NCBI GenBank assembly: GCA_046483285.1
Contig: JAWODN010000121.1
Location: 5,899 to 69,898 of the forward strand
DNA: 64,000 nucleotides
Source of the DNA: Candidatus Aminicenantes bacterium
GTDB lineage: Bacteria > Acidobacteriota > Aminicenantia > Aminicenantales > Aminicenantaceae
Reading direction: 5' to 3'
Shown: positions 1-27,573 of the stretch, piece by piece
Layout of the letters: each line of letters begins with the position of its first letter
Numbering within the stretch: position 1 is the first letter of the stretch
Program-made: the position numbers and the translations under genes
Notes under the pieces: model-generated
Databases searched by the model: none
Seen by the model: only the letters and a program-made list of their open reading frames with translations
What the model was told of the DNA's origin: nothing

Positions 1-1519
1 CATCAATTATCCGCCGGTAAAGATGTTGGTTCATATGGATGTGGTTGTTCCGGGAGGGAGGCTGTTTGCGGGACCTTTGGACGTAAAAGACTCCTTTTTG
101 ATTATCCGAGGGCAGGAGGAGAGCGATATGTTCAATAGCCAAAGCGTTCGCGATCAAATCCAGCAATGAACGGGAAAGTCTATCCAAGTCTCTTTCCCGG
201 CTCAATTCCTCACTGATGGAAAGAAGGGTTTTCCGGTAATGGTAACTGCGGCGGTATATGGCGCGGTCCAGCAGGGACTGGATGAGATTTTTCAGGGGAG
301 TGAAAAGAGTGGCGCCCAGGATGATGGCCATGATACCGAGAAGCAGGACGCTGAGGTTGTCTTGAGTGGATATTTTCGTCTGAGAGGTGACAATGAAGTA
401 CACCGTCGCAATAACCATATAGGATATTATCAGCGTAACGGCTTTTTTCAGAAGAACCTCTAAATCCATGAGTTTATAGCGGGAAATGGAGTAGACGAAA
501 GCCAAGGGGATAAGGGCATGGAGAACAATAGTGGCTTCGGAAAGTTTAGAGGGGACGGAACCTGAAAAATAAGGGAAAGCATAAAAAACAGCAAATGGGA
601 TAAATCCGATTCCCAGGCCGTAGGCGACCCATTTCAATTGTTTTTTTATAATTAAATTCGTGACTTTGTAGGAATCGTAGATAATAACCGCCAGGGCGAT
701 GAATGTGAAGAGCGTCAAATGAAAAAGATTCAGTTTTTCCAGCGTCATGAAATAGTCATAAGTAAAAGACTCTCCCAGCTGAAAGATATCGGGAAGGTGA
801 AAGAAGATTTGACCTAATAACAGCAAGGTGGCCGGAAAATAGAAGAGATAGACAGGAAAAAATTGTTTTTTATTGATTTTTTTGCGTTTGGGAAAAATCG
901 CGAAAAAATGGAGGAGCAAAGGCGGGAAAAAAAGAAAAGGGATGATATCAAGCCAGTAGAAAAGGGAATCGAGCGTGTCCAAATGCCCGGTCGGCGAAAA
1001 AACCTGGAAGGAAAAAAAGGCCATTGTCACCAGGAAAAAAAATATATAGGGCGGGGAGAGAGACTTCCTGGCATTGATAAAAACGGTGAGACCGATCACA
1101 AAGGCCGTCATTCCAATCAATGCCAGATAAAAATACAGCAAATGGGTTCTTTTTTTCTCAACAAAAAAAGAAGGATACATTGGGAACCCTTCGCGGACGA
1201 TCTCATAACGGACCTTTTGGTTGGAACTTTCGGCAATCCAAAGCTGCTTGGCCACGTCAATGGGATTCTCCATGGGAGAGAGGTTGATGGAATAAAGAAT
1301 GTCTCCTTTGTTGATTCCGGCCAGATAAGCGGGGCTGCCTTTCTCCACCCGGATGGCGGTCAAGCCTTCTTTTCGTTTTTGCCACGTCACCCCGTCTGAA
1401 GGTTCTTCCCATTGGATCTTTTTATAAATATTCAGACAGCCCAGAATGAAGAGGATGAAAACGGGGATGATGATGAAAAGGGTTTTAATTCGATTGGAGG
1501 AGGTTCCTTGGAATGACAT
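1..1519 (-). CDS. PDZ domain-containing multi-pass membrane sensor protein, N-terminal part; gene runs off the window edge (3' end beyond position 1)
   Basis: My own translation of the minus strand from the complement of 'cat' at 1517-1519: MSFQGTSSNRIKTLFIIIPVFILFILGCL..., then a PDZ-like segment GLTAIRVEKGSPAYLAGINKGDILYSIN and several hydrophobic helices. No stop occurs before position 1, so the ORF track does not list it. The + strand ORFs 239..463 and 863..1399 are low-complexity antisense artefacts of this gene. Confidence 0.45.
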   Translation of the reverse strand, partial: MSFQGTSSNRIKTLFIIIPVFILFILGCLNIYKKIQWEEPSDGVTWQKRKEGLTAIRVEKGSPAYLAGINKGDILYSINLSPMENPIDVAKQLWIAESSNQKVRYEIVREGFPMYPSFFVEKKRTHLLYFYLALIGMTAFVIGLTVFINARKSLSPPYIFFFLVTMAFFSFQVFSPTGHLDTLDSLFYWLDIIPFLFFPPLLLHFFAIFPKRKKINKKQFFPVYLFYFPATLLLLGQIFFHLPDIFQLGESFTYDYFMTLEKLNLFHLTLFTFIALAVIIYDSYKVTNLIIKKQLKWVAYGLGIGFIPFAVFYAFPYFSGSVPSKLSEATIVLHALIPLAFVYSISRYKLMDLEVLLKKAVTLIISYMVIATVYFIVTSQTKISTQDNLSVLLLGIMAIILGATLFTPLKNLIQSLLDRAIYRRSYHYRKTLLSISEELSRERDLDRLSRSLLDLIANALAIEHIALLLPSDNQKGVFYVQRSRKQPPSRNNHIHMNQHLYRRIID

Positions 1520-1968
1520 GTTCACGCTGTGAATCCAAAAAATTGAATCATTTTGATAAAAAAAATTACCCTAGTGTAATATATGCACCCGGGCTGAACG
1601 GACAGCCCATTTGGTCGCCGGTTCAGCCAAATACCTCCGGAGAACCGGGTTTTCTTTTAACCATAAGGGGTTGGTGTCCCGGGACAGAAGGTTGTTCATG
1701 TAGTCGTTTTCGGATGGCTTGGACGGCGGCGTTTCCACCTGAAATGATTCCGCTGGACCAGGCCCCCTGACTGCAGAAAAAATGGACAGCGAAGCGGCCA
1801 GCAAAGCTGCCAATACTGACGTCCACACCTTAATCTTCACAAAAATAAGATAAGGTTTCCGCGGAAATTTGTCAACATGGGCCAGGCGTTTTGGGTTCAT
1901 TGACAAAATCAAGGAGATAACCTAATATGACCATACCAAAATATGTGTATGTATGGGAATAATTAAGA

Positions 1969-3177
1969 ATGCCTTATTTTCACTGCCGGTTGGCGTCTGA
2001 AGACGGACGGGTTTTTTCTGAATCCCATTTTGCCCCTTCATATGATTCTTGCCGCAAGTATTTTGAATCCGGAGGCTTCTGTATTCTTTCCATCAAAAGG
2101 GACTGGAAAAAAGTTGACGTGTCTTTTTCTTTGGGCCGCAGGAGGATTAAGCCCAAAGATTTTGTGATGTTCAACCAGGAACTGGTGGCTCTTATAAACG
2201 CCGGCTATCCCATTTTGAAAAGTCTCCAGATCATCATAAACCGGTCTAAGGATCCGCACTGGAAAGAAATTTTAATGGAAGTGGAAAATGAAGTGAGAAG
2301 CGGAAAATCCCTTTCCGAAGCCTTTTCGGAAAGCCGCATAAAATTTCCCACGGTTTATATCGCGTCGCTTATAGCCGGAGAGAGGGGAGGCAATCTTCCC
2401 GAGACCATCAAACGTTATATCGTTTATGAAAAAGTGATCAGGCGAACCCGGGAGCGGGTTAAAACCGCTTTGACCTATCCTGTTTTGCTTTTGCTGCTCT
2501 CCGGAGTTCTTTTGGGTGTTCTGGTTGGATTCATCATTCCCCGGTTTTCGGATTTTTATTCGGATTTCGGTACAGAGCTTCCTTTTATCACCCGCAGCCT
2601 GGTTTCTTTTTCAGTATTTATCCGGGATAATTTTCCATTTTTGCTGGGGTTTCTTTTGGTTATGGCGATCGGATATTTTCAAATGAAGAGAAAAGAAGCC
2701 GCCACGGTTTTTTTGGACCGCTGGAAATTGAAAATCCCCATCATGCGGCCGGTATGGATAGAATCCTCCGTGGCCCTTTTCAGCCGGACGTTAAGCCTGC
2801 TGTTGGGAGGCGGAATATCCTTGCTGCAATCGGTGGGAATTGCCCGGAAGGCGGTTCCCAATGAATATCTGGTTCATAACATGAAAGATCTCCCCGAATA
2901 CATAAAAAACGGGGAAAATCTGTCAGAAGCGGTGGATAAAGCCGGGTTTTTCACGCCGCTTGCTCTGGACATGATCCGGATTGGGGAGCGGTCCGCCAAT
3001 TTGGAAGGAATGCTTGCGGATATCGCCCAGGTTCATGATGAAAGTGTTCAAGAGAGAGTCGACCGGCTGGTGGCCCTTATCGAACCGGCCATCATTATTT
3101 TCATGGGATTTATTGTGGCCGTAATGCTTCTTTCGGTATACCTTCCCATATTCAATATAATCAGTGTGGCGAGATGA
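1969..3177 (+). CDS. pilC: type IV pilus / T2SS inner-membrane platform protein (GspF/PilC family)
   Basis: 402 aa. N-terminus FHCRLASEDGRVFSESHFAPSYDSCRKYFESGGFCILSIK matches the conserved GspF/PilC N-terminal pattern. Two T2SSF-type repeats with interspersed TM helices. The stop overlaps the pilB start (ATGA). Confidence 0.85.
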   Translation: MPYFHCRLASEDGRVFSESHFAPSYDSCRKYFESGGFCILSIKRDWKKVDVSFSLGRRRIKPKDFVMFNQELVALINAGYPILKSLQIIINRSKDPHWKEILMEVENEVRSGKSLSEAFSESRIKFPTVYIASLIAGERGGNLPETIKRYIVYEKVIRRTRERVKTALTYPVLLLLLSGVLLGVLVGFIIPRFSDFYSDFGTELPFITRSLVSFSVFIRDNFPFLLGFLLVMAIGYFQMKRKEAATVFLDRWKLKIPIMRPVWIESSVALFSRTLSLLLGGGISLLQSVGIARKAVPNEYLVHNMKDLPEYIKNGENLSEAVDKAGFFTPLALDMIRIGERSANLEGMLADIAQVHDESVQERVDRLVALIEPAIIIFMGFIVAVMLLSVYLPIFNIISVAR

Positions 3178-4793
3178 CCATGAATAAACCAAACCATAAT
3201 AAAGAGGAAGTTTTAAGAGAAGAAGAAAAAGTAAAAAAACTGGCCCAGAGGTACAAGGTTCCGTATGTGGATCTCTCTGATTTGGCTCTGGACCGGGACC
3301 TGGTTCAATCTTTTCCGGTAGATTTCCTGCACCGGTCCAATTTTATTCCTTTAAAGGAAGAAAACGGCATTGTGAAGGTCGCGGTGGCCGACCCTTCCGA
3401 TATATCCATTATTGATTCCATTGAATCTTTTCTTGGGAAAAAAGTGAAAGTGTACGCGGCGTCCAAGCCGGCCATCCATGAAGCCCTGCGGAGAAGCGAA
3501 ACCGCACTGCAGGTCCTCAAGACCGCCACAGAAGGATATTCGGTTCAGGTCCTGGACCGGGAAGAGCCGGATAAGGATGAGAGCATCTCGGTGGAAAGGC
3601 TGGCCGACCAGGACGGTTCCATCATCAAGCTGGTCAATTCCATCATTTTCACAGCTGTTCAGAAGTGGGCGTCGGATATTCATATCGAATCCCGGGAAGA
3701 TTCGCTTATGGTTAAATACAGGACCGATGGAGTCTTGAACCGGGCCATGGAGCCTATCGATCAGAAATTTCAATCCCCCATTATTTCCCGTATCAAAGTG
3801 ATGTCCGATTTGGACATTGCGGAACGGCGGGTCCCTCAAGATGGGAAATTCCGTTTGAGAATCAAAGATAAAACCATTGATTTCCGGGTTTCCATCATGC
3901 CGAGTATTTATGGTGAAGATGCGGTGATTCGGATTCTGGACAAAGAAATGATCACGGAGGCTATTTCCGAGCTGAAATTGGAAATGCTCGGTTTTTCTGA
4001 TGAAGTTCTGGAAAAAACACAGCGATATATTCATGTCCCTTATGGAATGCTGTTGGTGACCGGGCCGACCGGAAGCGGGAAAACCACTACTCTTTATGCG
4101 GCTTTGACTGAAATCAATTCACCTGAGGATAAAATTGTCACCATTGAGGATCCCGTGGAATATCAAATCCAGGGAATCACCCAGATTCCGGTCAATGAAA
4201 AAAAGGGATTGACTTTCGCGCGGGGGCTGCGTTCTATTTTAAGGCATGACCCGGATAAAATCATGGTGGGGGAAATTCGTGACCCGGAGACGGCCCAGAT
4301 CGCCATTCAATCGGCGCTGACCGGTCATTTGGTCTTCACCACCGTGCATGCCAATAACGTGTTCGACGTGATCAGCCGCTTTCTGCACATGGGCGTTGAT
4401 CCATACAGCTTTATTTCCGCGCTGAATGGAATCCTGGCCCAGAGGCTGGTGCGGGTGCTGTGCCGCCACTGCCGGGAAAAAACCAGCTACGATGATCATA
4501 TTCTGCGTGATGCGGGATTGGATCCGGATCAATACCGGAATCACGTTTTTTATGAGGCTCAGGGATGTGAAGAATGTCATTTTAAAGGATATCAAGGCCG
4601 GACGGCCATTGCTGAGTTCCTGGAGCTTTCGGACAAAATCCGGGAGATGATTCTGGATAAAAAACCTTTATCCGAAGTGAGGAAGCAGGCCCGGGCCGAG
4701 GGGATGAATTCTTTGCGGCATTTCGGATTGAGCAAAGTGGTTGACGGAATAACCAGCTTGAAAGAGTTAAACAAGGTCACTTTTGTGGAATGA
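3174..4793 (+). CDS. pilB: type IV pilus assembly ATPase (GspE/PilB family)
   Basis: 539 aa. T2SSE_N-like N-terminal domain, Walker A LLVTGPTGSGKTTTLYA, Asp box, His box, and a tetracysteine cluster CRHCREK...CEEC. Confidence 0.9.
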   Translation: MTMNKPNHNKEEVLREEEKVKKLAQRYKVPYVDLSDLALDRDLVQSFPVDFLHRSNFIPLKEENGIVKVAVADPSDISIIDSIESFLGKKVKVYAASKPAIHEALRRSETALQVLKTATEGYSVQVLDREEPDKDESISVERLADQDGSIIKLVNSIIFTAVQKWASDIHIESREDSLMVKYRTDGVLNRAMEPIDQKFQSPIISRIKVMSDLDIAERRVPQDGKFRLRIKDKTIDFRVSIMPSIYGEDAVIRILDKEMITEAISELKLEMLGFSDEVLEKTQRYIHVPYGMLLVTGPTGSGKTTTLYAALTEINSPEDKIVTIEDPVEYQIQGITQIPVNEKKGLTFARGLRSILRHDPDKIMVGEIRDPETAQIAIQSALTGHLVFTTVHANNVFDVISRFLHMGVDPYSFISALNGILAQRLVRVLCRHCREKTSYDDHILRDAGLDPDQYRNHVFYEAQGCEECHFKGYQGRTAIAEFLELSDKIREMILDKKPLSEVRKQARAEGMNSLRHFGLSKVVDGITSLKELNKVTFVE

Positions 4794-5755
4794 AGCGGAA
4801 AAACGAAAATAAAATCAAATCCCGGCGGGAAAAAGCTTTTGAATTTTTTACCAAGAGGCCGGTTCTGCCACTGGCGTTTCAAATCACGGAAAGATATGTC
4901 AGCGGCGCGGCTTTCTCCCCCAAGGAAAAAAAGGTCAAGTCCCATTTTATTTCACCTCTCCCCCCAGGGACATTAAGAGCCTCCTTTTTTAAAAAAAATA
5001 TCCGGACGCTTCGTCCGCTTTTGTCGGCGATCAAGCAAGGACAAGAAAAACTGGCGGCCCCGTCCGGCAAAACGGCTTTGCTGCTTCCGGAGATCACTCA
5101 AAAAACATTCAGTTTCTCTTTTGAGACCCTGCCTTTTTCTCAGGGAGAAAGGGAACAGCTGATCCGCTTCCGCATAAAAAAACAGCTGCCCCTGATTCCG
5201 GATGATGCCAGAATATCTTATGATACTTTCCTTAATTCGGCTTCCGGGGGCACCAGGGTGGTGGCGTCAGCGGCTTGTTGTGACGTCATAAGGGAATATG
5301 AAGCCCTTTTCGAAGAGGCCGGATTCAAGGTGAAGTTGATATCAACACCGGTTATGAGCTTGATAAATTTGCTGCGTTCGGAAGCCCCGTCGGATTTTTT
5401 ATTGCTGAATGTGGAGGAAGAAGCTTTTTCGCTGGCAGCTGTGGTCCAGGGAGAGTTCGCATTGTACCGGCAAAAATCTTTCGGGATGGAAAGCCCCGGC
5501 GAAGATGAAACAAGAGGGAAAATCAACACGGTTGTGCAGGAGATTGAAAACACTCTGAATTTCATTGAAGACCGGGAAAAAAGAAAAATGGATGCTTTTT
5601 GGGTGAGAAACGGCGGTGATGACAGGGAAGAATTTTTAAAAACATTGGCTCCACTGGTCCGGATTCCAACCAAAAACATAACGGAATGCCGCCGGTTGGA
5701 TCCCGGACTTTCCAGCCGGGAACACTTGGCGCCCCTGATAGGCCAGTTGGTATGA
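4790..5755 (+). CDS. pilM: PilM-like cytoplasmic actin-fold pilus assembly protein (real start may lie downstream of the listed one)
   Basis: Position between pilB and a PilN-like gene. No TM segment. Start overlaps the pilB stop (ATGA), stop overlaps the pilN start (ATGA). The first ~80 aa are low-complexity, so the true start is uncertain. Confidence 0.5.
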   Translation: MKRKNENKIKSRREKAFEFFTKRPVLPLAFQITERYVSGAAFSPKEKKVKSHFISPLPPGTLRASFFKKNIRTLRPLLSAIKQGQEKLAAPSGKTALLLPEITQKTFSFSFETLPFSQGEREQLIRFRIKKQLPLIPDDARISYDTFLNSASGGTRVVASAACCDVIREYEALFEEAGFKVKLISTPVMSLINLLRSEAPSDFLLLNVEEEAFSLAAVVQGEFALYRQKSFGMESPGEDETRGKINTVVQEIENTLNFIEDREKRKMDAFWVRNGGDDREEFLKTLAPLVRIPTKNITECRRLDPGLSSREHLAPLIGQLV

Positions 5756-6315
5756 TAAAACAACCGGTTAATATCAATCTGGCCACTCATCCGGTCCGCA
5801 ACCGCCGCTTGTTTTTTTCCCTGCTGGGGATCGGCGTGTTCCTTTTTTTAATCACGGCCGGGGCGGCCGCCCATGTTTTTTTGGTTTATCACAGTAAAAA
5901 TGAGGGAGCCCAAAGAGCTTCGGAACGCCTGGAAGACCGCATGAGGCAGGTCCAAAGGGAGGAAATAAGGATCACCGCCCGGATTGAGCAAATCAAGGCC
6001 GATGAAGGATTAAGGCTGGACGTTTACAATGATTTAATTTTTCAAAAAAGTTTTTCCTGGATTGAATTATTAAACGCGATGGAAGAAGCCCTTCCCGGCT
6101 CTTGTTACATGTCGTCTCTTTCTCCCTTGCAGAAAAAAGAAAATCAGCTTGAAATCAGATGTCATGTCGCTTATCCATCTTTGGACAGCTTGTTGGATTT
6201 TATATCCAATCTCCATAAAATCGGGTTTAAAAACATTCAGGTCAAAAATGAAACCGAGGGCGGCGGCGGGTATAAGATCTCGGAAATGTCGTTAAGATAT
6301 GAAAGAATTCATTAG
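5752..6315 (+). CDS. pilN: PilN-like bitopic pilus alignment protein
   Basis: Start re-assigned to the ATG at 5752 (overlapping the pilM TGA) instead of the track start at 5686. N-terminus MIKQPVNINLATHPVRNRRLFF matches the PilN INLLP/R motif. A single TM (LLGIGVFLFLITAGAAAHVF) and coiled coil follow. Confidence 0.7.
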   Translation: MIKQPVNINLATHPVRNRRLFFSLLGIGVFLFLITAGAAAHVFLVYHSKNEGAQRASERLEDRMRQVQREEIRITARIEQIKADEGLRLDVYNDLIFQKSFSWIELLNAMEEALPGSCYMSSLSPLQKKENQLEIRCHVAYPSLDSLLDFISNLHKIGFKNIQVKNETEGGGGYKISEMSLRYERIH

Positions 6316-6859
6316 TCTTCTCACCCGAAGCGAGAGACGAATCATCCTCATTATAGCCGCGGTCTTGGCGGCGGCGGCGGTTTTTTATTTTTTCATCGCC
6401 CTGCCCCAGCGCAGCGCCTATTTTTCCCGTCAAATGGAAATACGCTTCCAGAAAAAGGAATATCAGAAATTGGAAACGCAGCAGGCCGATAAAAAGAAAG
6501 AACTGGCTGACTGGATTCAGGCTCAGGAGGAGATAAATGAACTCAGGTTGAGATATTTCTACCCCCGGCAGGACGGGTACCAGAATATCCGGCAGGACCT
6601 CGGCCGCATTTTTCAAAAAACAGGGGTGAGCGTGGACCGGATCCGGTATGATTATGTCGAAGCCAAGGATGCTGACATTCAGAAAGTGATCATAAATTTT
6701 GAGGTTTCCGGGAGATATGATCATCTCAGAGGCTTTTTACATGAAATTGAGACCTTTCCCAAATTTATCTGGGTGGAAAGAATCAATTTTGGGGATACGG
6801 AAGAGGCTTCCCGGAAGTTAAGTTTGAATTTAACCCTGGCGGCTTATAATGCGCTGTAA
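6299..6859 (+). CDS. pilO: PilO-like bitopic pilus alignment protein
   Basis: 186 aa. N-terminal TM (RRIILIIAAVLAAAAVFYFFIAL), coiled coil, C-terminal alpha/beta region. Overlaps pilN by 17 nt. Confidence 0.6.
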   Translation: MKEFISLLTRSERRIILIIAAVLAAAAVFYFFIALPQRSAYFSRQMEIRFQKKEYQKLETQQADKKKELADWIQAQEEINELRLRYFYPRQDGYQNIRQDLGRIFQKTGVSVDRIRYDYVEAKDADIQKVIINFEVSGRYDHLRGFLHEIETFPKFIWVERINFGDTEEASRKLSLNLTLAAYNAL

Positions 6860-7346
6860 GATAATGATTTTTATGGGAATTCTGGCCTTGGGAGGGGCGG
6901 TGTTTTCCTTGACGCAGGGACAGGATGACCACAGAAAAACAGAGAAATTACTGCGGACGGATCTGTTGAATTTTGAGTCCGCTCCTCTTAAGAAATCCCG
7001 CAGAAACATATTCATTCCTTCTCCGGGTGATGAATCAGTCCGGGGACAGAAGCATACCGCGGAGCGGCCGGAAATTTCCGTGCTGCCGGGTGATCTTGAA
7101 TCTCTGGAAGAGGAGAGGCCCGGAACCTCCCTTTTGCCGAGAATTGATTTAAGGTATATCGGGTATGTGGGAAATAAAGAAAGAAAAGTCGCTCTCATTT
7201 TACAGGGTGGAGAAGCCCTGGCTGTCCAGCAGGAAGACATTCTTCCGGATGGGGTTAAAATCATACGGATCGCTGAAGAAGAAATTGAAGTTGAGCTGCG
7301 GGGAGGCGAAAACGTCAAGTTTTTTCTCGAGGGAGAAAAAGAATGA
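6849..7346 (+). CDS. pilP: PilP-like periplasmic (lipo)protein
   Basis: 165 aa. Signal peptide MIFMGILALGGAVFSLTQG. RNIFIPS resembles the RDPF motif of PilP. C-terminal beta domain LRYIGYV...ALIL..G..V..GD.LPDGVKIIRI resembles the PilP/GspC HR domain. The stop overlaps the pilQ ATG. Confidence 0.55.
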   Translation: MRCKIMIFMGILALGGAVFSLTQGQDDHRKTEKLLRTDLLNFESAPLKKSRRNIFIPSPGDESVRGQKHTAERPEISVLPGDLESLEEERPGTSLLPRIDLRYIGYVGNKERKVALILQGGEALAVQQEDILPDGVKIIRIAEEEIEVELRGGENVKFFLEGEKE

Positions 7347-9526
7347 GAAAAACATGGACATTATTGTTGATTCTGATATTGATGTGGGGATGTTCCACAT
7401 TTAACCGCAGTTATAAATTGGGCACCGACGCCGCCATGAATAAGGATTGGGATGAAGCCGTCCGATTTTATGAGAAAGCGGTTCTTCAGGACCCTGACAA
7501 TTCGGTCTACCGGCTGGCATTGTTTCGGGCCGCCATGGCGGCCCGAAACCAGCATCTCAGCCGGGCCCGCCGGCTGGCCGCGCAGGACCGCACGGATGAA
7601 GCCATGCAAGCGTACCAAAAGGCCCTCGCTTACGACCCGGAAAACCCCCTTCTGCAAAAGGAAATCAAGGAACTTCAGCAGAAACCTGAAGAAGCGCCTG
7701 AGGCGAAAAAAGACATGTACGAACCCCCTCTCCAGCTTCAGGTCGGCCGGGAGGATATCGTGCTGAAATTCACCCGCGACGCCAGCCTGCGTTCCATTTT
7801 CTTGGCTCTTGGGAAATATGCGGGAATCAATGTCATTTTTGATGCCCAGTTCCGGGATCAACCGTTTTCGGTTGATTTTTCAGGCATGAGTTTTTTAAGG
7901 GCTTTGGAAACCCTGTGCGTGGCCACCCAAAATTTTCACCGGGTTTTGGATGAAAAAACCATTCTGATCGTTCCCGACAGCCCCCAAAACCGGAGCCGGC
8001 ATGAAATCACAGCCATGAAAACCTACTATCTGTCCTATATTGATGCCCAGGAACTGCAGGCCCGTTTAAACGCCATGCTGAGAACACCTTCCGCCATGCC
8101 TCAGCTCACCGTGGATAAGGTTCTGAATTCCGTTACGGTTAAGAGCACTCCTGAAGTTCTCAAGCAGGCCGACGGTTTGATTCGATCCTGGGATAAGCCC
8201 AGGGGAGAGATCCTGCTGGACCTGGAGATCATGGAAGTCTCCCGGAGGAAGATGAAGCAGCTCGGCCTGGACTTGGATTCCCATGTTTTGGGGTTCCAAT
8301 ACGGCGGTGAGGGCACAACAGGCGGATCGGATTCCGACAAGGGGTGGATTGATTTCGATCAGATCGACCTGTCCAAAACCGGAAATTATCAGTTAAGCCT
8401 TCCGGTCGGTTTGCTCCGTTTCCTGGAAACGGATGCCGACACCAAGATCATCGCGCAGCCGCGGCTGCGTGGGATCGAAGGGGAAAAGATGGAATACCTG
8501 GTGGGGGATGAAGTGCCCATTCCCCAAACGACGTTTTCGCCCATGGCCGCCGGGGGAGTCAGCACCCAGCCGATCACTTCATTCCAGTACAAACCGGTGG
8601 GGATCGAAATGTACATCACCCCCCGGATTCATTTCGATGGAGAAGTCACCCTGGAAATGGAATTGAAGATCAAGGCCCTGGGCGGTTCGGGGTATGGAGA
8701 CCTCCCCATCATCACCACCCGGGAGGTCAAAAACATCATGCGGCTGAAAGAGGGGGAAACCAATCTTCTGGCCGGCCTGCTTAAAGATGAAGAACGGAAA
8801 ACGCTGAAAGGAATCGCGGGAATCAAACATATTCCTCTCCTGGGCCGTCTTTTTTCCAACACAGACTCTGAAGTGTTGCAGACCGATGTGGTCATGACCA
8901 TTACGCCTTTCATCTTACAGGATAAGTCATTGCGGGAAGCGGATTTGCGGCCCATTTGGATGGGTATGGAAAGCGTATCCGCCGGAACGGGAGCCTCCGG
9001 CCGTGACCCGGACAGCCCGGAAATGATTTATCCGGGCAGCGAGATGGAACGTCTTCCCCGCCGGCTTCCAGACCAGGCCATGGAAAGAGAAGAGGAAACT
9101 GCGGAGGGAGCCAATGAGCTGATTTTAAGCCCCCCTTCCTATCAGGGGCCGGAGAACCGGAATCTGCGGATGACCGTCAATCTTCAGACTGCCGAAGACA
9201 TTCAGAATTTTTCCATGACGGTGTCTTTTGATCCGCAAATCCTGGAACTGCAGAGCGTGAAACAGGGAAATATTATTCAGCAATTGGGAGAAAGCCCCTC
9301 CGTACTCGAAAATATCGACAATACCGCCGGTGTGTTCAACTTCGGATTTTCAAGTTCTCAGGTGGATTCGGGCGTCAAAGGCTCCGGACTGCTGGTGACA
9401 TTTATATTCAAGCCGCTGCAGGGAGGGGAAACCACGGTTTCCATTGTCAATTCCAACGCCTCCAGTGACACGGGAACCCCGGTGTCCTTTTCTGCCAATG
9501 ACAGCCGCATCATCATCCGGGAGTGA
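7343..9526 (+). CDS. pilQ: secretin (PilQ/GspD family) with N-terminal lipoprotein-TPR module and C-terminal cohesin-like module
   Basis: 727 aa. Lipobox LILMWGC. About 100 aa of TPR-like repeats (YEKAVLQDPDN..., YQKALAYDPEN). N0/N1-like domains. Secretin C-domain GETNLLAGLLKDEERKTLKGIAGIKHIPLLGRLFSNTDSEVLQTDVVMTITPFIL. An extra ~145-aa C-terminal beta module: FSMTVSFDPQILELQSVKQGNII...GSGLLVTFIFKPLQGGETTVSI. Confidence 0.85.
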   Translation: MRKTWTLLLILILMWGCSTFNRSYKLGTDAAMNKDWDEAVRFYEKAVLQDPDNSVYRLALFRAAMAARNQHLSRARRLAAQDRTDEAMQAYQKALAYDPENPLLQKEIKELQQKPEEAPEAKKDMYEPPLQLQVGREDIVLKFTRDASLRSIFLALGKYAGINVIFDAQFRDQPFSVDFSGMSFLRALETLCVATQNFHRVLDEKTILIVPDSPQNRSRHEITAMKTYYLSYIDAQELQARLNAMLRTPSAMPQLTVDKVLNSVTVKSTPEVLKQADGLIRSWDKPRGEILLDLEIMEVSRRKMKQLGLDLDSHVLGFQYGGEGTTGGSDSDKGWIDFDQIDLSKTGNYQLSLPVGLLRFLETDADTKIIAQPRLRGIEGEKMEYLVGDEVPIPQTTFSPMAAGGVSTQPITSFQYKPVGIEMYITPRIHFDGEVTLEMELKIKALGGSGYGDLPIITTREVKNIMRLKEGETNLLAGLLKDEERKTLKGIAGIKHIPLLGRLFSNTDSEVLQTDVVMTITPFILQDKSLREADLRPIWMGMESVSAGTGASGRDPDSPEMIYPGSEMERLPRRLPDQAMEREEETAEGANELILSPPSYQGPENRNLRMTVNLQTAEDIQNFSMTVSFDPQILELQSVKQGNIIQQLGESPSVLENIDNTAGVFNFGFSSSQVDSGVKGSGLLVTFIFKPLQGGETTVSIVNSNASSDTGTPVSFSANDSRIIIRE

Positions 9527-9540
9527 GGCTCTGGTTTATC

Positions 9541-9900
9541 CGGTCTGACCTATACCTTAGCCTGAATTATTCATAAAAAAATTGCGATGTTTTTGCCAAT
9601 CTTTCCGTAACTGCGATATTCATCATTTTTATAAAAAGAACAAACATTACGTTTTTCCTTGCCGGCCTTTCATTATGATCGCAATTTTTTTACCCTTCGG
9701 GACGACATGCCGCTTTGTCATTGCGAGGCTTGCGCAAGCAAGCCGTGGCAATCCCTTTCTGCCTCGTGAAAGCGGAACCCGCCGCCCATACGAGGCAGTC
9801 AGGGATCCCTCGGTGCTTCGCACCGCGGGATGACATTGAATTAAAGAATTGTCGTCGTCTGCGGCAATCCCGGCCCGTGAATAAGCCAGACAAGTCTGAA
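9541..9900. repeat. copy of the mosaic intergenic repeat family: 9-bp-repeat remnant, module A (TTAGCCTGAnnTATTCATAAAAAAATnGCGATG), hairpin unit, module D
   Basis: 9561-9595 matches 13826-13858, 29369-29400 and 58276-58310. 9700-9835 matches the 155-bp tandem unit at 14058. 9836-9895 (ACATTGAATTAAAGAATTGTCGTCGTCTGCGGCAATCCCGGCCC) recurs at 29700-29750 and 58550-58600. Confidence 0.8.
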
Positions 9901-11895: not shown

Positions 11896-12140
11896 CGTTC
11901 GAAAATAACAAAAATAGTCCATTTCGTCTGTCTGGTCTGTCTGGTTTATCTGGTCTATCTCGTTTATCTGGTTTATCTGGTCTGTCTGGTTTATCTGGTT
12001 TGAAAAGGGCGGGAAAGGCGAGAAAGGCGAGAAAAGCAGAAGGCCTCTGAAAAAATTAAACATGAACATTTTCATATCTTGCCTGTGGCGAAGCCCCCAT
12101 GGCAGCCGTTCGGAAGTGACACTCATGGCCGGCCCGCTCA
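11896..12140. repeat. mosaic repeat copy: 5' module (CGAAAATAACAAAAATAGTCCATTTCGTCT), eight 9-bp tandem units (GTYTRTCTG, 11926-11997), module E (GGCGAGAAAGGCGAGAAAAGCAGAAGGCCTCTGAAAAAATTAAACATGAACATTTTCAT)
   Basis: The same module order recurs at 38190-38340 (about 95% identity for module E). The 9-bp repeats match those at 13761-13823 and 18951-19004. Lies immediately upstream of the TTG start of the C69 peptidase gene. Confidence 0.8.
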
Positions 12141-13682: not shown

Positions 13683-13756
13683 GGCGGTGTAGCTCAGTCG
13701 GTTAGAGCATACGGCTCATATCCGTAGCGTCGGGGGTTCGAATCCCTCCACCGCCA
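13683..13756 (+). tRNA. tRNA with CAU anticodon (elongator tRNA-Met or lysidine-type tRNA-Ile2)
   Basis: Cloverleaf GGCGGTG/CACCGCC acceptor stem, D-arm TAGCTCAGTCGGTTAGAGCA, anticodon stem TACGG/CCGTA with loop CTCATAT, T-arm GGTTCGAATCC. The fully paired 1-72 pair argues against an initiator. CCA is not encoded. Confidence 0.85.
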
Positions 13757-13760
13757 TTCA

Positions 13761-13823
13761 GTTTATCTTGTTTGTCTAGTTTGTCTTGTTTGTCTTGTTT
13801 GTCTTGTTTATCTAGTTTGTTTA
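13761..13823. repeat. seven 9-bp tandem units (GTTTRTCTW) directly abutting the tRNA 3' end
   Basis: gtttatctt gtttgtcta gtttgtctt gtttgtctt gtttgtctt gtttatcta gtttgttta. Same 9-bp family as 11926-11997 and 18951-19004. Confidence 0.85.
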
Positions 13824-14057
13824 GCCTGACCTATTCATAAAAAAATGGCGATGACACCGTCCCCTTTGGGCGGGCCTGTCCCACCGCATCTGACTATCTC
13901 TTGTCATTCATGGTCACCCCGGGCGTTACTATGTCATCACGAGCGCCCCCTTGTCATCCCGGGAGAAGCGAAGGACCCCAGACTGCTTCGAATTGGCAAC
14001 CCATTGTTCATACGTCCTGGCGAAAGCACTCACAGATCCCTTTTCACTTCGCTCCCC
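13824..14057. repeat. mosaic repeat modules A and G (MITE-like palindromic unit GTCATCC...GGGACGAC)
   Basis: 13826-13858 is module A. 13936-14057 matches 29581-29700 and, reverse-complemented, 60700-60790. Its ends are an inverted repeat (GTCATCCTGAGCGGAGCGA / TCGCTCCGCTCCTCGGGACGAC in the 29581 copy). Confidence 0.75.
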
Positions 14058-14590
14058 GGGACGACATGCCCCTTGTCATTGCGAGGCTTGCGTCAGCAAG
14101 CCGTGGCAATCCCTTCCTGCCTGGTGAAAGCGGAACCCCCCGCCCATACCAGTCAGGGATCCCTCGGTGCTTCGCACCGCGGGATGACACACCCAAAGGC
14201 ACGGCGTGCCCCGGGACGACATGCCCCTTGTCATTGCGAGGCTTGCGTCAGCAAGCCGTGGCAATCCCTTCTTGCCTGGTGAAAGCGGAACCCCCCGCCC
14301 ATACCAGTCAGGGATCCCTCGGTGCTTCGCACCGCGGGATGACACACCCAAAGGCACGGCGTGCCCCGGGACGACAAGCCCCTTGTCATTGCGAGGCTTG
14401 CGTCAGCAAGCCGTGGCAATCCCTTCCTGCCTGGTGAAAGCGGAACCCCCCGCCCATACCAGGCAGGGATCCCTCGGTGCTTCGCACCGCGGGATGACAC
14501 ACCCAAAGGCACGGCGTGCCCTGGGACGACAAGCCCCTTGTCATTGCGAGGCTTGCGTCAGCAAGCCGTGGCAATCCCTTCCTGCCTCGT
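14058..14590. repeat. tandem array of a 155-bp hairpin-rich unit (3 full copies plus 1 truncated)
   Basis: GGGACGACATGCCCC recurs at 14058, 14213, 14368 and 14523, an exact 155-bp period with >95% identity. Each unit has an extended hairpin ATTGC-GA-GGCTTGC-GTCA-GCAAGCC-GTG-GCAAT and palindromes AGGGATCCCT, GGTGCTTCGCACC, GGCACGGCGTGCC. Single copies of the unit occur at 9700, 18700 (rc), 58415 and 60390-60660 (rc). Confidence 0.9.
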
Positions 14591-14685
14591 CTGAACCATC
14601 CGGATCCGGTACCGCTTTCTCTCTATAAAGCCGTCACGGATCCCTCATCACTACGTTTCTCAAGATGACATAGGGGCAACAAACG

Positions 14686-14724
14686 CAAGCAACGCAACAA
14701 ACGCAACAAACGCAAGCAACGCAA
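14686..14724. repeat. microsatellite (CAAACGCAAG/CAACGCAA units) at the 3' end of asnB
   Basis: gcaacaaacgcaagcaacgcaacaaacgcaacaaacgcaagcaacgcaa. Its reverse complement, a GCGTT-rich tract, is echoed at 18905-18945. Confidence 0.6.
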
Positions 14725-14732
14725 ATAAGGGG

Positions 14733-16643
14733 TCAGTCCAGGTAGTGATCTTTCCATATGGAAAAGACCAGCAGCGCCCAAATTTGATGACTGTTGTTCC
14801 GGGAGCCGTCAAGATGGCTGCGGATAAGGCGCTCCACCTCGCCGGTCCGGAAATAACCGTCTTGTTTAATCCGGGCTGAATCCAGCCTCTCCAGCATCAG
14901 TTCTTTCAGTTCCTCCCGGAGCCAATGCTTGATGGGGATGCTGAATCCTTCTTTTTTCCGGTAGATGTTCTCCCGGGGCAGGAGCCGCTCCATGGTTTTC
15001 TTGAGAAACCATTTGGTGGTCAGCCCCTTCAATTTATACCGCCCCGGCAGCCGGAACATGAATTCCACCACTTTGTGGTCGAGCAGCGGGACCCGCGTTT
15101 CCAGGGAAGCCGCCATGCTCATCCGGTCCACTTTGACCAGGATATCGTCGATCAAGTAGGTGTGCAGGTCCAGATAAAGTTCACCGTTCTGAGAGTCAAA
15201 GCTCTCCGCCTTTTGAAAAAAAGCCGGAAAAGGTGGGGTGTGATACAGGGGGCTGCCGCCGTTTAAGGATTCAAGGAATTCCGGGGTGTATAAGCGGTTC
15301 TTCGCCTGGGGAGAGAGAAATGTCATCCACCGGAAATGACGGAGCCGGGGATCCAATTCCAAACCCTGGCCGTAGCGTTGAAGCTTGTTCCAGACCCCTT
15401 TTTTTCTGGGAGAAGGCGGCATGCGGCGGGCGATATGGGGCAGGAGGGCATTCACCGGAGAAAGCCACGGCGACCGGGCCAGCTTTTGAGCCTGATAATG
15501 TTCGTAGCCGCCGCAGACTTCATCCCCCCCGTCTCCGGAAAGGATCACTTTAACGTGCTTTCGGGCCATCCGGGACACTAAATAGGTGGGGAAAATGGAG
15601 AAATCACCGAAAGGTTCATCCAGGTGGCGGATGAGTTTTTCGGTCAGTTCCAGGGCGTCGGGCCGGATGACGAATTCTTCGTGGTCGGTGGCGAATTTCC
15701 GGGCCACCCGGCGGGCGTGGCCCAATTCGTTGTATGAGCTGTCTTCGAACCCGATGGAAAAAGTTTTAAGAGGGGAGACACCCAGGTCCCGCATCAATCC
15801 CACTACGGCGGAGGAATCGATGCCGCCGCTGAGAAAAGCCCCCAGAGGGACATCACTGATCAATCTCATTTGAACCGATTCTTTCAGCAGGGCATAAAAT
15901 TCATCCTGCAGGGAATCAAGCGGGCGGAGGGGATCCGGATTATTTTGTTCAGGAGTGATGTCCCAGTAACGGCGGATATCCATTCGTCCCTGCCGGTACT
16001 GGAGGAGGCATCCGGCCGGCAGCTTGTGGATGTCAGTGAAGATGGAGCGGGGCGCCGGTATGTATTCCAACGTGAGAAAAAGATCCAGCGCCCGGGGATC
16101 GATATCCCGGGGCATTCCGGGGTAGGCCAGAACGGCTTTAAGCTCAGACCCGAACACCAGGGTCTTGTCCTGAAGCCGGGTATAATAAAGCGGTTTGATT
16201 CCCAGGCGGTCACGAAAAAGAAAAAGGCTTTTTGTCCGGTCATCCCATATAGCGGCTGCGAACATGCCCCGCAGTTTCTTGACCATATCCCGGCCCCATT
16301 CTTCATAGGCGTGCAAAATGGTTTCCGTATCCGTGCGGGTCTTGAAGCGGTGGCCCCGTCCGGCCAGTTCCTGTTTGAGTTCGGGAAAATTGTAAACTTC
16401 CCCGTTGTAAGCGATCCGGATGGTTTCATCTTCATTGGAAATGGGCTGGTGCCCGGTTTCCAGGTCGATGATGCTCAAGCGCCTGGCCCCCAGGGCGGCT
16501 CCCTGTCCGGCATACAAGCCTTGATCGTCCGGCCCGCGGTGGGTGATGGTCCGGCACATCGTCTCCAGGCGGTCCGCACTGGTTTTTGTCCTTGAATCCG
16601 GGAGCGCGAATCCGCAGATGCCGCACATGGTCACTCCGGCCAA
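14733..16643 (-). CDS. asnB: asparagine synthetase (glutamine-hydrolysing) family amidotransferase
   Basis: 636 aa. N-terminal Cys nucleophile MCGICGF. PP-loop SGGIDSS. Typical AsnB length. Confidence 0.85.
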   Translation of the reverse strand: MAGVTMCGICGFALPDSRTKTSADRLETMCRTITHRGPDDQGLYAGQGAALGARRLSIIDLETGHQPISNEDETIRIAYNGEVYNFPELKQELAGRGHRFKTRTDTETILHAYEEWGRDMVKKLRGMFAAAIWDDRTKSLFLFRDRLGIKPLYYTRLQDKTLVFGSELKAVLAYPGMPRDIDPRALDLFLTLEYIPAPRSIFTDIHKLPAGCLLQYRQGRMDIRRYWDITPEQNNPDPLRPLDSLQDEFYALLKESVQMRLISDVPLGAFLSGGIDSSAVVGLMRDLGVSPLKTFSIGFEDSSYNELGHARRVARKFATDHEEFVIRPDALELTEKLIRHLDEPFGDFSIFPTYLVSRMARKHVKVILSGDGGDEVCGGYEHYQAQKLARSPWLSPVNALLPHIARRMPPSPRKKGVWNKLQRYGQGLELDPRLRHFRWMTFLSPQAKNRLYTPEFLESLNGGSPLYHTPPFPAFFQKAESFDSQNGELYLDLHTYLIDDILVKVDRMSMAASLETRVPLLDHKVVEFMFRLPGRYKLKGLTTKWFLKKTMERLLPRENIYRKKEGFSIPIKHWLREELKELMLERLDSARIKQDGYFRTGEVERLIRSHLDGSRNNSHQIWALLVFSIWKDHYLD

Positions 16644-26749: not shown

Positions 26750-27573
26750 GGCGACACCTGGGTGGTGACTTTTCCGGTCCGGCGGTCATAGGCATACTCC
26801 CGCCCGTCCAAGTCCATGGGGAGGGAATCAATCCAGCCGTCCTGCACCAGGCGGCCGAGTTTGTCCGGATAATATCCGAAAGCCCTTTTGTATTCTTCCA
26901 GAAGGCCTTCCAGTTTTTGGATATCCATGGCCGCTTTGGTCCGGTAAAGATGATTGGAAGCGATATTTTTGACCCGCTCGCTTTCCGCATTCTGGTATAT
27001 ATCCATCCAGTTGTTCCAGGCTTCCTGATAATCCCCGGTTTTAAAGACGGCGTTGGCGAACAGCCGCCTGGCCATATCCGGAGCGTCTTCAACTTCCATG
27101 GCTTTCCGGTAGTATTTTCGGGCCAGGGAATAATCCTTTAAATTCATCTGGGCGTAATGGCCGGCCTGCCAGGGAAAGAGCCATTCCTTGGGGTTGTTTT
27201 TCAGCCCCAGGTCCAGAATAGAAAAAGCCGCTTCGTAGTCTCCGGCATCATAGACGGCGATCATGGCGCCGATTTGATAGGGATCCAGATAGCGGGGGTC
27301 CAGCTCGGCGATGATGGAATAGACATGCTCCAGGTGGTCAAAGCGGTCGTCCACGGCTTTGTCGCTGAAGTACTGAATGGACCAGATATAGATCAGGTCG
27401 GCAAGAAGGGTGTTGTATCCCAGGGCGGCGTACTGGAGGTATTGTCCGGAAGGTATATATATGATGGAAGATCCGGGTTGGGTGTTCCGGGGAACGGCGT
27501 CGGATTTAAGCTTGAGAAGAGAGAACAGCCCTATGCACAGAACCATGCCCCAAATGAAGACGCTTTTTTTCAT
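26737..27573 (-). CDS. exported helical-repeat (TPR-like) protein of unknown function; start reassigned
   Basis: Start moved to the ATG at 27571-27573 (MKKSVFIWGMVLCIGLFSLLKL signal peptide), 5 nt downstream of the permease stop. The track start at 27744 would overlap the upstream gene. Follows the ABC pair and precedes pilD. Confidence 0.4.
   Translation of the reverse strand: MKKSVFIWGMVLCIGLFSLLKLKSDAVPRNTQPGSSIIYIPSGQYLQYAALGYNTLLADLIYIWSIQYFSDKAVDDRFDHLEHVYSIIAELDPRYLDPYQIGAMIAVYDAGDYEAAFSILDLGLKNNPKEWLFPWQAGHYAQMNLKDYSLARKYYRKAMEVEDAPDMARRLFANAVFKTGDYQEAWNNWMDIYQNAESERVKNIASNHLYRTKAAMDIQKLEGLLEEYKRAFGYYPDKLGRLVQDGWIDSLPMDLDGREYAYDRRTGKVTTQVSPWER

What the first reader, a model, noticed from the sequence alone, without database searches (positions are those of the whole stretch)
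7343..9526. Secretin with fused N-terminal lipoprotein/TPR module and C-terminal cohesin-like beta module
The PilQ/GspD-family secretin begins with a lipobox (LILMWGC) and about 100 aa of TPR repeats before the N0/N1 domains. In Pseudomonas and Myxococcus the TPR lipoprotein pilotin (PilF/Tgl) is a separate protein, so this may be a pilotin-secretin fusion. After the secretin domain there is an extra module of about 145 aa (9095-9526) whose pattern resembles non-cellulosomal cohesin domains (FSMTVSFDPQILELQSVKQGNII...GSGLLVTFIFKPLQGGETTVSI). A cohesin-like module on the extracellular/periplasmic gate of a secretin could dock a partner protein.
Basis: partly seen in the sequence, partly recalled or inferred. 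Interest (0 to 1): 0.6.

Follow-up and report, generated by a model that had tools for sequence, protein, structure and literature searches.

The report
Pilus secretin with built-in TPR and cohesin
The outer-membrane pore protein of a type IV pilus machine in an uncultured Aminicenantes (Acidobacteriota) bacterium carries a lipid-anchored TPR module at its front and a genuine cohesin protein-docking module on a flexible tether at its end; this layout is common across the phylum, but I found no publication describing it.

Summary
ORF 7343-9526 (+) encodes 727 aa: signal peptide with an invariant lipobox Cys17; about 2.5 TPRs (aa 22-112); a length-conserved 29-aa linker; N0; N1; the secretin domain (to aa 530); a short conserved motif; a variable disordered linker (aa 542-589); and a 137-aa module. 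That module passes the Pfam Cohesin threshold (E 1.9e-12), and its AlphaFold model (pLDDT 94) matches only cohesins in the PDB (best 2XDH, TM 0.80).

The gene is the last of a pilC-pilB-pilM-N-O-P operon. Minor pilins, PilY1 and PilD lie about 10 kb away, so this is a type IV pilus secretin.

The same TPR-secretin-cohesin layout occurs in more than 200 protein clusters from Aminicenantes and Terriglobales. Some other Acidobacteriota keep the lipidated TPR but end in a proline-rich tail.

The "pilotin fusion" reading is plausible by analogy with liposecretins and TPR pilotins, but homology to PilF/Tgl is not shown.

By homology with solved secretins, the C-terminal module should sit in the periplasm on the outer wall of the barrel, not at the gate or the cell surface. 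No dockerin was found in the window or in 80 related loci, so the partner is unknown.

Verdict: a real, conserved new variant of a known kind. I found no paper on it. Interest is moderate.

The parts
7343..9526 (+). Whole gene: lipidated TPR - N0 - N1 - secretin - linker - cohesin, 727 aa
   Evidence: ORF. Pfam domains. An identical protein in NCBI is named 'MAG: cohesin domain-containing protein [Candidatus Aminicenantes bacterium]'.
7343..7393 (+). Signal peptide with lipobox (LMWG-C17)
   Evidence: Cys17 is invariant in 60 aligned and 120 listed homologs and is preceded by G/S/A.
7394..7678 (+). TPR module, about 2.5 repeats (helices 22-32, 36-49, 54-80, 84-97, 102-112)
   Evidence: Pfam TPR_2, TPR_1, TPR_19, TPR_14 and TPR_11 above their cutoffs. 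AlphaFold pLDDT about 90. Best NCBIfam hit is the N-terminus of Myxococcus TraC, E 4e-12.
7679..7765 (+). Linker 1, low-confidence in the model, length conserved at 28-31 aa
   Evidence: pLDDT 53-59. Length range.
7766..7975 (+). N0 domain
   Evidence: AlphaFold beta-alpha-beta elements at aa 142-211, pLDDT 86-90. Weak FecR_C/STN-like Pfam hit at aa 145-209.
8012..8203 (+). N1 (Secretin_N) domain
   Evidence: PF03958, E 3.6e-9, 37.1 bits against a cutoff of 28.2.
8207..8932 (+). Secretin domain (barrel and gate)
   Evidence: PF00263, E 7.6e-31. Aligns to GspD, PilQ and RcpA cryo-EM chains up to aa 525-533.
8933..8965 (+). Conserved post-secretin motif (D534, P537, W539 invariant)
   Evidence: Alignment A1. 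A related motif (E-A-D-L-R-P-F/I) is present in cohesin-less acidobacterial homologs.
8966..9109 (+). Linker 2: disordered, charged, variable tether
   Evidence: pLDDT below 50 for aa 541-588. 20% pairwise identity and length 32-54 aa.
9110..9523 (+). Cohesin module
   Evidence: PF00963, E 1.9e-12. pLDDT 94. All top 50 Foldseek hits are cohesins.
1969..7346 (+). Upstream operon genes: pilC/gspF (1969-3177), pilB/gspE with MshEN (3174-4793), pilM-like (4790-5755), pilN-like (5686-6315), pilO (6299-6859), pilP-like (6849-7346)
   Evidence: Pfam and NCBIfam. Synteny is conserved in related loci.
19553..25974 (+). Minor pilin cluster: GspH/FimU-like, a pilin, PilW, PilX and a 1207-aa PilY1 with FG-GAP repeats
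   Evidence: Pfam N_methyl, GspH, PilW, PilX_N, T4P_PilY1.
25988..26749 (-). Prepilin peptidase PilD
   Evidence: Peptidase_A24 and A24_N_bact.

Best explanation
This is the outer-membrane secretin (PilQ-type) of a type IVa pilus machine in an Aminicenantes bacterium, with two accessory modules built into the same polypeptide. (1) After signal peptidase II cleavage, Cys17 is lipidated. [quoted passage not shown] A fixed-length 29-aa linker connects it down to the N0 ring. This module most likely does the job that separate lipoproteins (PilF/PilW/Tgl, TadD) or a bare lipid anchor (HxcQ) do elsewhere: it targets the secretin to the outer membrane and stabilises it. (2) After the last barrel strand and a short conserved motif, a disordered 32-54-aa tether carries a true cohesin domain. 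By homology with solved secretins, this places 12-15 cohesins per pore in the periplasm around the outside of the barrel, where S-domains and pilotins sit in other systems. There the cohesin most likely acts as a protein-docking module that holds a still unidentified partner at the outer-membrane end of the machine. The partner could be an accessory or anchoring protein, or a neighbouring subunit. Shown: the domain identities, their conservation, the operon context and the taxonomic spread. Inferred: lipidation, outer-membrane sorting, periplasmic location of the cohesin, and docking activity.
For: Domain identities: Pfam and NCBIfam; AlphaFold models; Foldseek, all top 50 hits cohesins; PDB profile search. 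Lipobox: Cys17 is invariant in 120 homologs. Pilus context: the operon pilC-pilB-pilM-N-O-P-secretin is conserved in related loci, with minor pilins, PilY1 and PilD nearby. Selection: the cohesin keeps a fixed length of 137-138 aa and 49% pairwise identity, against 20% for the adjacent linker; linker 1 is fixed at 28-31 aa. Spread: at least 120 Aminicenantes clusters and about 115 Terriglobales clusters carry TPR, Secretin and Cohesin together, and about 70 GTDB species show full-length coverage. Topology: solved PilQ chains end within 2-15 residues of the position matching query aa 525-530. GspD and RcpA chains continue for another 50-60 residues beyond it, into the S-domain or tail that contacts lipoprotein pilotins at the inner leaflet (PMC10499894). 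Precedents for the lipid/TPR role: the self-piloted HxcQ liposecretin (Viarre 2009, cited in PMC12475490) and the TPR pilotins Tgl/PilF/PilW (PMC10653833).
Against: No partner has been identified. No dockerin-like calcium-loop motif appears in any frame of the window. phmmer with two dockerin seeds found nothing in six-frame translations of the window plus 80 loci, about 1.3 Mb, and no conserved gene follows the secretin. All characterised cohesins act outside the cell, so a periplasmic cohesin would be unprecedented. The TPR module is much shorter than known pilotins and has no specific sequence similarity to them. Some Acidobacteriota keep the TPR-secretin without a cohesin, so the cohesin is not essential to this secretin type. 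Lipidation, sorting and topology are inferred from homology and were not measured.
Confidence: 0.55

Rival explanations
1. The cohesin binds the protein's own lipidated TPR module, on the same or a neighbouring subunit. The two ends would form a collar around the barrel under the outer membrane, a fused equivalent of the S-domain/pilotin pair.
For: Both modules are predicted to lie at the barrel's outer wall near the inner leaflet, given the lipid anchor at one end and the C-terminal position at the other. They co-occur in more than 200 clusters from two classes. In RcpA-TadD, the secretin's C-terminal tail binds the groove of a TPR lipoprotein (PMC10499894).
Against: The TPR persists without a cohesin in other Acidobacteriota, so it does not need one. 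TPR grooves usually bind extended peptides rather than beta-sandwiches. MI-APC covariation showed no enrichment of TPR-cohesin pairs: 21 in the top 200 against 38.9 expected. That test had no power, with an effective sequence number of about 68 and a failed intradomain control.
Confidence: 0.15
2. The cohesin is exposed on the cell surface and anchors dockerin-bearing extracellular proteins at the pilus base, like the cohesins of anchoring scaffoldins.
For: All characterised cohesins work outside the cell. The nearest cohesin sequences in the representative search are multi-cohesin proteins, several with T9SS sorting domains and one with a dockerin. Dockerin and cohesin genes are counted in acidobacterial genomes (PMC5900883).
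Against: In solved secretins the C-terminus lies on the periplasmic side (PMC10499894). No route is known that would carry a folded 137-aa domain from there across the outer membrane. No dockerin was found in the window or in 80 loci.
Confidence: 0.1
3. The beta-sandwich does not bind a protein. It binds peptidoglycan or another glycan, replacing the missing AMIN domains as an envelope anchor, or it is simply a bulky structural spacer.
For: This secretin has no AMIN domains, which in PilQ of Myxococcus bind peptidoglycan and position the machine (PMC10653833). The 32-54-aa tether could reach the cell-wall layer. Cohesin-less relatives have a proline-rich tail instead, which suggests a spacer or anchor role.
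Against: Sequence and fold match cohesins specifically, not carbohydrate-binding modules. No glycan-binding evidence was obtained.
Confidence: 0.15
4. Gene-model artefact: a wrong start codon or a fused ORF created a chimaera.
For: None beyond the general possibility in MAG assemblies.
Against: The start overlaps the upstream stop and has a ribosome-binding site. The same full-length architecture appears in hundreds of independent assemblies, including closed chromosomes.
Confidence: 0.01

Closest known systems
Type IVa pilus secretin PilQ (P. aeruginosa 6VE2, M. xanthus 3JC8, N. meningitidis 4AV2)
   Same: N0-N1-secretin core. Last gene of a pilMNOP(Q) operon. Minor pilins, PilY1 and PilD nearby.
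   Different: No AMIN domains; instead a lipidated TPR at the N-terminus. PilQ chains end just after the secretin domain, whereas this protein continues for about 195 aa (motif, tether, cohesin). It scores below the TIGR02515 cutoff, 99 against 284 bits.
Liposecretins (HxcQ of P. aeruginosa; also BfpB and TcpC, the latter two from my own knowledge)
   Same: The secretin itself carries a lipobox and is thought to pilot itself to the outer membrane (Viarre 2009, cited in PMC12475490).
   Different: As far as I know, HxcQ has only a linker after the lipid anchor and no TPR module, and none of these has a C-terminal cohesin.
TPR lipoprotein pilotins PilF/PilW/Tgl and TadD
   Same: [quoted passage not shown]
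   Different: They are separate polypeptides with 5-6 TPRs (about 250 aa). Here there are about 2.5 TPRs in 95 aa, fused in cis, with no significant specific similarity: 18 bits against cutoffs of 154 and 225.
Secretin S-domain (GspD, InvG) and the RcpA C-terminal tail
   Same: An extra segment after the secretin domain that lies outside the barrel in the periplasm and mediates protein binding (PMC10499894).
   Different: S-domains are short helical or unstructured peptides that are bound by pilotins. Here the extra segment is a folded 137-aa beta-sandwich on a long tether, of a type that normally does the binding itself.
Non-cellulosomal cohesin of Archaeoglobus fulgidus (PDB 2XDH) and cellulosomal type I/II cohesins
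   Same: Same fold (TM 0.77-0.85) and the same Pfam family.
   Different: 12-19% sequence identity. It is fused to an outer-membrane secretin of a diderm bacterium. The predicted location is periplasmic, and no dockerin partner has been found.
Amuc_1098-family type IV pilus outer-membrane protein (Akkermansia; NCBIfam NF042912)
   Same: Weak matches to both its N-terminal TPR region and its secretin C-terminus. This suggests that TPR-secretin fusions also exist outside Acidobacteriota.
   Different: The scores are far below the cutoff (24 against 750 bits). No cohesin is reported for that family, and I did not examine it further.

Membership tests
Secretin superfamily (PF00263) | Secretin domain above the Pfam gathering score | tested here: met
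   107.4 bits against 27.5, aa 361-525. Aligns to 20 solved secretins.
Secretin superfamily (PF00263) | N0 and at least one Secretin_N (N1/N3) ring domain before the secretin domain | tested here: met
   PF03958 at 37.1 against 28.2 bits. AlphaFold shows N0-like and N1 folds at aa 142-211 and 224-283.
Secretin superfamily (PF00263) | Forms a 12-15-mer gated channel in the outer membrane | not testable with these tools
   Only a monomer model was available; the gate regions have low pLDDT, as expected for a monomer.
Type IVa pilus secretin PilQ (TIGR02515) | Score above the curated cutoff | tested here: not met
   99.1 bits against 284.35.
Type IVa pilus secretin PilQ (TIGR02515) | Encoded with pilM, pilN, pilO and pilP, and with type IV pilins, PilY1 and PilD | tested here: met
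   Operon at 1969-9526. Pilin cluster and PilD at 19553-26749. Synteny is conserved.
Type IVa pilus secretin PilQ (TIGR02515) | N-terminal AMIN domain(s) | tested here: not met
   No AMIN hit; the N-terminus is lipobox plus TPR. AMIN domains are not universal in PilQ (my own knowledge).
Type II secretion secretin GspD (TIGR02517) | Score above cutoff, N0-N3 domains, S-domain, gspC-M context | tested here: not met
   129 bits against 351.35. Only N0 and N1 are present. There is no S-domain, and the context is pilMNOP with PilY1.
Cohesin (PF00963) | Profile score above the gathering threshold | tested here: met
   48 bits against 24.1, E 1.9e-12.
Cohesin (PF00963) | Nine-stranded jelly-roll beta-sandwich fold | tested here: met
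   pLDDT 94. The top 50 Foldseek PDB hits are all cohesins, TM 0.70-0.85.
Cohesin (PF00963) | Binds a dockerin module | not testable with these tools
   No dockerin in the window or in 80 loci. The whole genome was not available, and no multimer prediction was possible.
Cohesin (PF00963) | Extracellular or scaffoldin context | tested here: not met
   There is a single copy, fused to a secretin C-terminus, which is periplasmic by homology. This is an inference, not a measurement.
TPR pilotins PilF/PilW/Tgl (TIGR02521, NF033762) | Outer-membrane lipoprotein signal | tested here: met
   Invariant lipobox Cys17; residue +2 is S/A/T/V, not D.
TPR pilotins PilF/PilW/Tgl (TIGR02521, NF033762) | Six TPR motifs and a family-specific profile score | tested here: not met
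   Five helices in 95 aa. 18.3 bits against 154 for PilW and 18.7 against 225 for Tgl.
TPR pilotins PilF/PilW/Tgl (TIGR02521, NF033762) | Required for secretin targeting or multimerisation | not testable with these tools
   Needs genetics or biochemistry.
Liposecretins (HxcQ type) | Lipobox on the secretin polypeptide itself | tested here: met
Liposecretins (HxcQ type) | Self-piloting through the lipid anchor | not testable with these tools
   Needs experiment.

The most novel reading that the evidence does not exclude
The secretin-borne cohesin is the first cohesin that works in the periplasm. A ring of 12-15 tethered docking modules around the pilus pore would capture a specific partner. That partner could be a dockerin-like-tagged accessory or cargo protein, or the protein's own lipidated TPR. 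Either way, Acidobacteriota would have a self-contained pilotin/S-domain/anchor system unlike that of any studied secretin, and this would be a defined, tractable case for the long-open question of what non-cellulosomal cohesins do.
Probability: 0.3. Interest if true: 0.75.

Novelty: new variant of a known kind. Interest (0 to 1): 0.55.

Why it matters
Secretins are the outer-membrane gates of type IV pili and of type II and type III secretion. How they are targeted, stabilised and anchored is known almost only from Proteobacteria and Myxococcus, where separate pilotins, S-domains and AMIN domains do the work. Acidobacteriota are among the most abundant soil and sediment bacteria. They appear to have put a lipid anchor, a TPR module and a cohesin docking module into the secretin polypeptide itself.

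If the cohesin docks a partner in the periplasm, that would extend cohesin biology beyond extracellular cellulosome-type assemblies. It would also identify a new accessory component of pilus machines. Because the layout occurs in hundreds of species, including Terriglobales, the order that holds cultured soil Acidobacteria, it may be experimentally accessible.

Tried and rejected
1. Dockerin search. A regex for dockerin-type calcium loops in all six frames of the window gave one hit, on the strand opposite the only long ORF there, so probably chance. phmmer with two dockerin seeds against six-frame segments of the window plus 80 loci gave no hit. With only two seeds, sensitivity is limited.

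2. Conserved partner gene next to the secretin. None was found; the secretin is the last gene, and tilS follows on the opposite strand.

3. Covariation between TPR and cohesin columns (MI-APC, 211 non-redundant sequences, effective number about 68). There was no enrichment, but the intradomain positive control also failed, so the test is uninformative.

4. Separate pilotin. The only other TPR protein in the window (26740-27573, minus strand, in an operon with pilD) has no canonical lipobox and only generic TPR similarity. It is neither confirmed nor excluded.

5. A Foldseek search of the AlphaFold database (afdb50) to find UniProt and cultured-species examples was unavailable.

6. Literature searches: secretin + cohesin domain, PilQ + cohesin, Acidobacteria + secretin + cohesin, Aminicenantes + dockerin, and Aminicenantes + type IV pili. 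None found a description of this architecture.

7. The idea that the fusion is specific to Aminicenantes was rejected once Terriglobales homologs were found.

8. The idea that the nearest cohesins, in multi-cohesin T9SS proteins, come from the same organisms was not supported. The named ones are from other phyla such as Desantisbacteria.

9. One translate call was made out of frame by my mistake and is not used.
Full report
**Observation.** The window contains an ORF at 7343..9526 (+) of 727 aa. Its ATG overlaps the stop codon of the preceding gene (ATGA), and a GAGGGAG ribosome-binding site lies upstream.

Pfam finds several TPR families above their gathering scores over aa 24-105. It also finds Secretin_N at aa 226-287, Secretin at aa 361-525 (E 7.6e-31), and Cohesin PF00963 at aa 602-712 (E 1.9e-12; 48 bits against a cutoff of 24.1).

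The N-terminus is a signal peptide ending in ...LMWG-C17. In 120 homologs this Cys is invariant and is preceded by G, S or A. Tryptophan at position -2 is unusual for a lipobox, but it is itself conserved.

**Structure.** I built an AlphaFold model of the whole protein from 60 homologs. It contains:
- five confident helices at aa 22-112 (pLDDT about 90);
- a low-confidence linker at aa 113-141;
- N0 at aa 142-211 and N1 at aa 224-283;
- the secretin domain up to about aa 526;
- a disordered stretch at aa 541-588 (pLDDT below 50);
- a confident beta-sandwich at aa 590-727.

Modelled alone, the last module reaches pLDDT 94 and pTM 0.86. All 50 top Foldseek hits in the PDB are cohesins. The best is 2XDH, the non-cellulosomal cohesin of Archaeoglobus fulgidus (E 3.7e-11, TM 0.80), followed by type I, II and III cellulosomal cohesins. 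A sequence profile of the module also finds only cohesins at the top of the PDB. The module is therefore a true cohesin, not merely cohesin-like.

**Genomic context.** The secretin is the last gene of an operon encoding:
- PilC/GspF (1969-3177);
- a PilB/GspE ATPase with an MshEN domain (3174-4793);
- PilM-like, PilN-like, PilO and PilP-like proteins (4790-7346).

About 10 kb downstream lie a GspH/FimU-like pilin, another pilin, PilW, PilX, a 1207-aa PilY1 with FG-GAP repeats, and the prepilin peptidase PilD.

The operon order is conserved in related loci. Downstream, tilS lies on the opposite strand, and no conserved gene follows the secretin.

The machine is therefore a type IVa pilus system. 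The secretin itself scores below the curated cutoffs of both the PilQ and GspD models. It lacks AMIN domains, the extra N2 and N3 domains, and an S-domain.

**Distribution.** An identical protein is in NCBI as 'MAG: cohesin domain-containing protein [Candidatus Aminicenantes bacterium]'. At least 120 clusters at 48-75% identity share the whole architecture.

In GTDB species representatives, about 70 Aminicenantes genomes match over aa 1-726. Eight other Acidobacteriota, such as Candidatus Sulfopaludibacter, match only to about aa 548. The seven of these for which I recovered an ORF keep the lipobox, TPR and secretin but end in a proline-rich tail of roughly 40-80 aa.

A search started from a divergent 824-aa member showed the same TPR-secretin-cohesin layout in a second large group. 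Those with NCBI names are from Terriglobales or Acidobacteriia. One example sits next to two pilin-like genes rather than in a pilMNOP operon. One closed Aminicenantes chromosome carries two paralogs, one in a pil operon and one orphan.

A cohesin-profile search of 1.8 billion representatives gave 6484 hits. Among the best 150, only this family combines a cohesin with a secretin. The rest are mostly multi-cohesin proteins, several with T9SS sorting domains, and the named ones are from other phyla.

Two conclusions follow:
- The lipidated TPR-secretin is an acidobacterial form of the secretin.
- The cohesin is a frequent but not universal C-terminal addition. It is old enough to be shared by two classes, or it was acquired more than once.

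**Selective constraint.** Within the Aminicenantes set, mean pairwise identities are:

| Region | Mean pairwise identity |
|---|---|
| TPR | 59% |
| N0 | 63% |
| Secretin | 67% |
| Cohesin | 49% |
| Linker 2 | 20% |

The cohesin has a fixed length of 137-138 aa with no indels, whereas linker 2 varies from 32 to 54 aa. Linker 1 is fixed at 28-31 aa. A short motif just after the barrel (D534, P537, W539) is invariant, and a related motif is present in the cohesin-less relatives. This is the signature of a folded, functional domain on a flexible tether, not of a decaying fusion.

**Topology and mechanism (inferred).** In alignments to solved structures, the position matching query aa 525-530 lies 2-15 residues from the C-terminus of PilQ chains (6VE2, 3JC8, 4AV2, 8CO1). 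In GspD (5WQ7, 5WQ8) and RcpA (8ODN) it lies 50-60 residues before the chain end, where the S-domain or tail follows.

Those C-terminal segments lie in the periplasm on the outside of the barrel and contact outer-membrane lipoprotein pilotins. For RcpA, the last four residues bind the groove of the TPR lipoprotein TadD (PMC10499894). The cohesin should therefore hang in the periplasm around the barrel, with 12-15 copies per pore. It should not sit at the gate or on the cell surface.

At the other end, the lipid on Cys17 would hold the TPR at the inner leaflet. The fixed 29-aa linker is about 100 Å when extended (my estimate). That is roughly what is needed to run down the barrel to the N0 ring.

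Two precedents support a targeting or stabilising role for the lipidated TPR:
- HxcQ is piloted by its own lipid anchor (Viarre 2009, cited in PMC12475490).
- Tgl, PilF and PilW are lipidated TPR pilotins of PilQ (PMC10653833).

However, the module has only about 2.5 TPRs and shows no specific similarity to pilotin families. It scores 18 bits against cutoffs of 154 and 225. Its best match is the N-terminus of the Myxococcus lipoprotein TraC, E 4e-12. It works like a fused pilotin or liposecretin anchor at best; membership in the pilotin families is not shown.

**What the cohesin binds.** I could not identify a partner.
- No dockerin-type motif occurs in the window.
- Two dockerin seeds found nothing in six-frame translations of the window and 80 loci.
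- No gene is conserved next to the secretin.
- A covariation test between TPR and cohesin had no power.

My preferred reading is that the cohesin is a periplasmic docking module for an unidentified protein at the outer-membrane end of the machine. The rivals are:
- it binds the protein's own TPR to form a collar, a fused analogue of the S-domain/pilotin pair;
- it is surface-exposed and anchors dockerin proteins, which contradicts known secretin topology;
- it binds cell wall or glycan, or acts as a spacer, in place of the missing AMIN domains.

A gene-model artefact is excluded by the hundreds of independent full-length copies.

**Novelty.** Annotation pipelines already name these proteins 'cohesin domain-containing protein' or 'general secretion pathway protein D', so the domain combination is visible in databases. 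Searches of the held literature found no paper that describes or discusses a secretin with a cohesin. They found none on Aminicenantes dockerins either, beyond one count in a dbCAN table.

I rate it a new variant of a known kind: a type IV pilus secretin with two built-in accessory modules. Interest is moderate. The layout is conserved across a major phylum and offers a defined setting for studying a non-cellulosomal cohesin. The mechanism, however, remains inferred.

**Limits.** The whole genome was not available for a dockerin census. Lipidation, sorting and topology all rest on homology.

Noticed in passing
window 14054-14587; possibly also ~9600-9900, 18631-18930 and 60487-60633: A 155-bp tandem repeat (3.4 copies, 98% identical) lies just downstream of a tRNA gene (13683-13756). 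ORF translations elsewhere share the same strings (VIARLA.ASRGNPFLP.ESG), including directly after the secretin stop codon. This suggests a dispersed intergenic repeat family of unknown nature.
   Followed up: partly
window 11926-12001, 13760-13824, 14676-14724: Short arrays of 9-nt units (for example TCTGGTTTA, 5-8 copies) flank the tRNA gene and the 155-bp repeats.
   Followed up: no
window 26740-27573 (-): A TPR protein of about 278 aa (start MKKSVFIWGMVLC...) overlaps pilD and follows ABC transporter genes on the same strand. It shows only generic TPR similarity and has no canonical lipobox. It could be a pilus accessory protein or unrelated. The gene order with pilD recurs in 7 of 42 related loci.
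   Followed up: partly
window 7343-7760 (aa 7-111 of the secretin): The best curated-family match of the lipobox-plus-TPR region is the N-terminus of the Myxococcus outer-membrane-exchange accessory lipoprotein TraC (NF040658, E 4e-12, far below the family cutoff). I did not examine what TraC's remaining ~480 aa are.
   Followed up: no
L040 and L050 (OY970261.1, Aminicenantes chromosome): There are two TPR-secretin-cohesin paralogs in one genome. L050 follows pilC and pilB; ORF calling between pilB and the secretin was unclear. L040 is an orphan that follows three large signal-peptide proteins (716, 539 and 522 aa).
   Followed up: partly
L081 (Terriglobales-type contig, 2.69 Mb): Here the TPR-secretin-cohesin gene is followed by two pilin-like (N_methyl) genes, with no pilMNOP upstream. 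The architecture is therefore used in more than one gene context.
   Followed up: no
window 16631-18586 (-): A 651-aa membrane protein shows weak similarity to a Leptospira putative glycosyltransferase family (E 8e-12) and a faint exosortase A match (E 0.004). It lies next to an asparagine synthase between the pil operon and the pilin cluster.
   Followed up: no
window 1513-1912: Overlapping ORFs on both strands just upstream of pilC: 85 aa on the plus strand and 113 aa on the minus strand. The minus-strand ORF has BLAST matches at the same relative position in 30 of 42 loci. Which strand is coding was not resolved.
   Followed up: no
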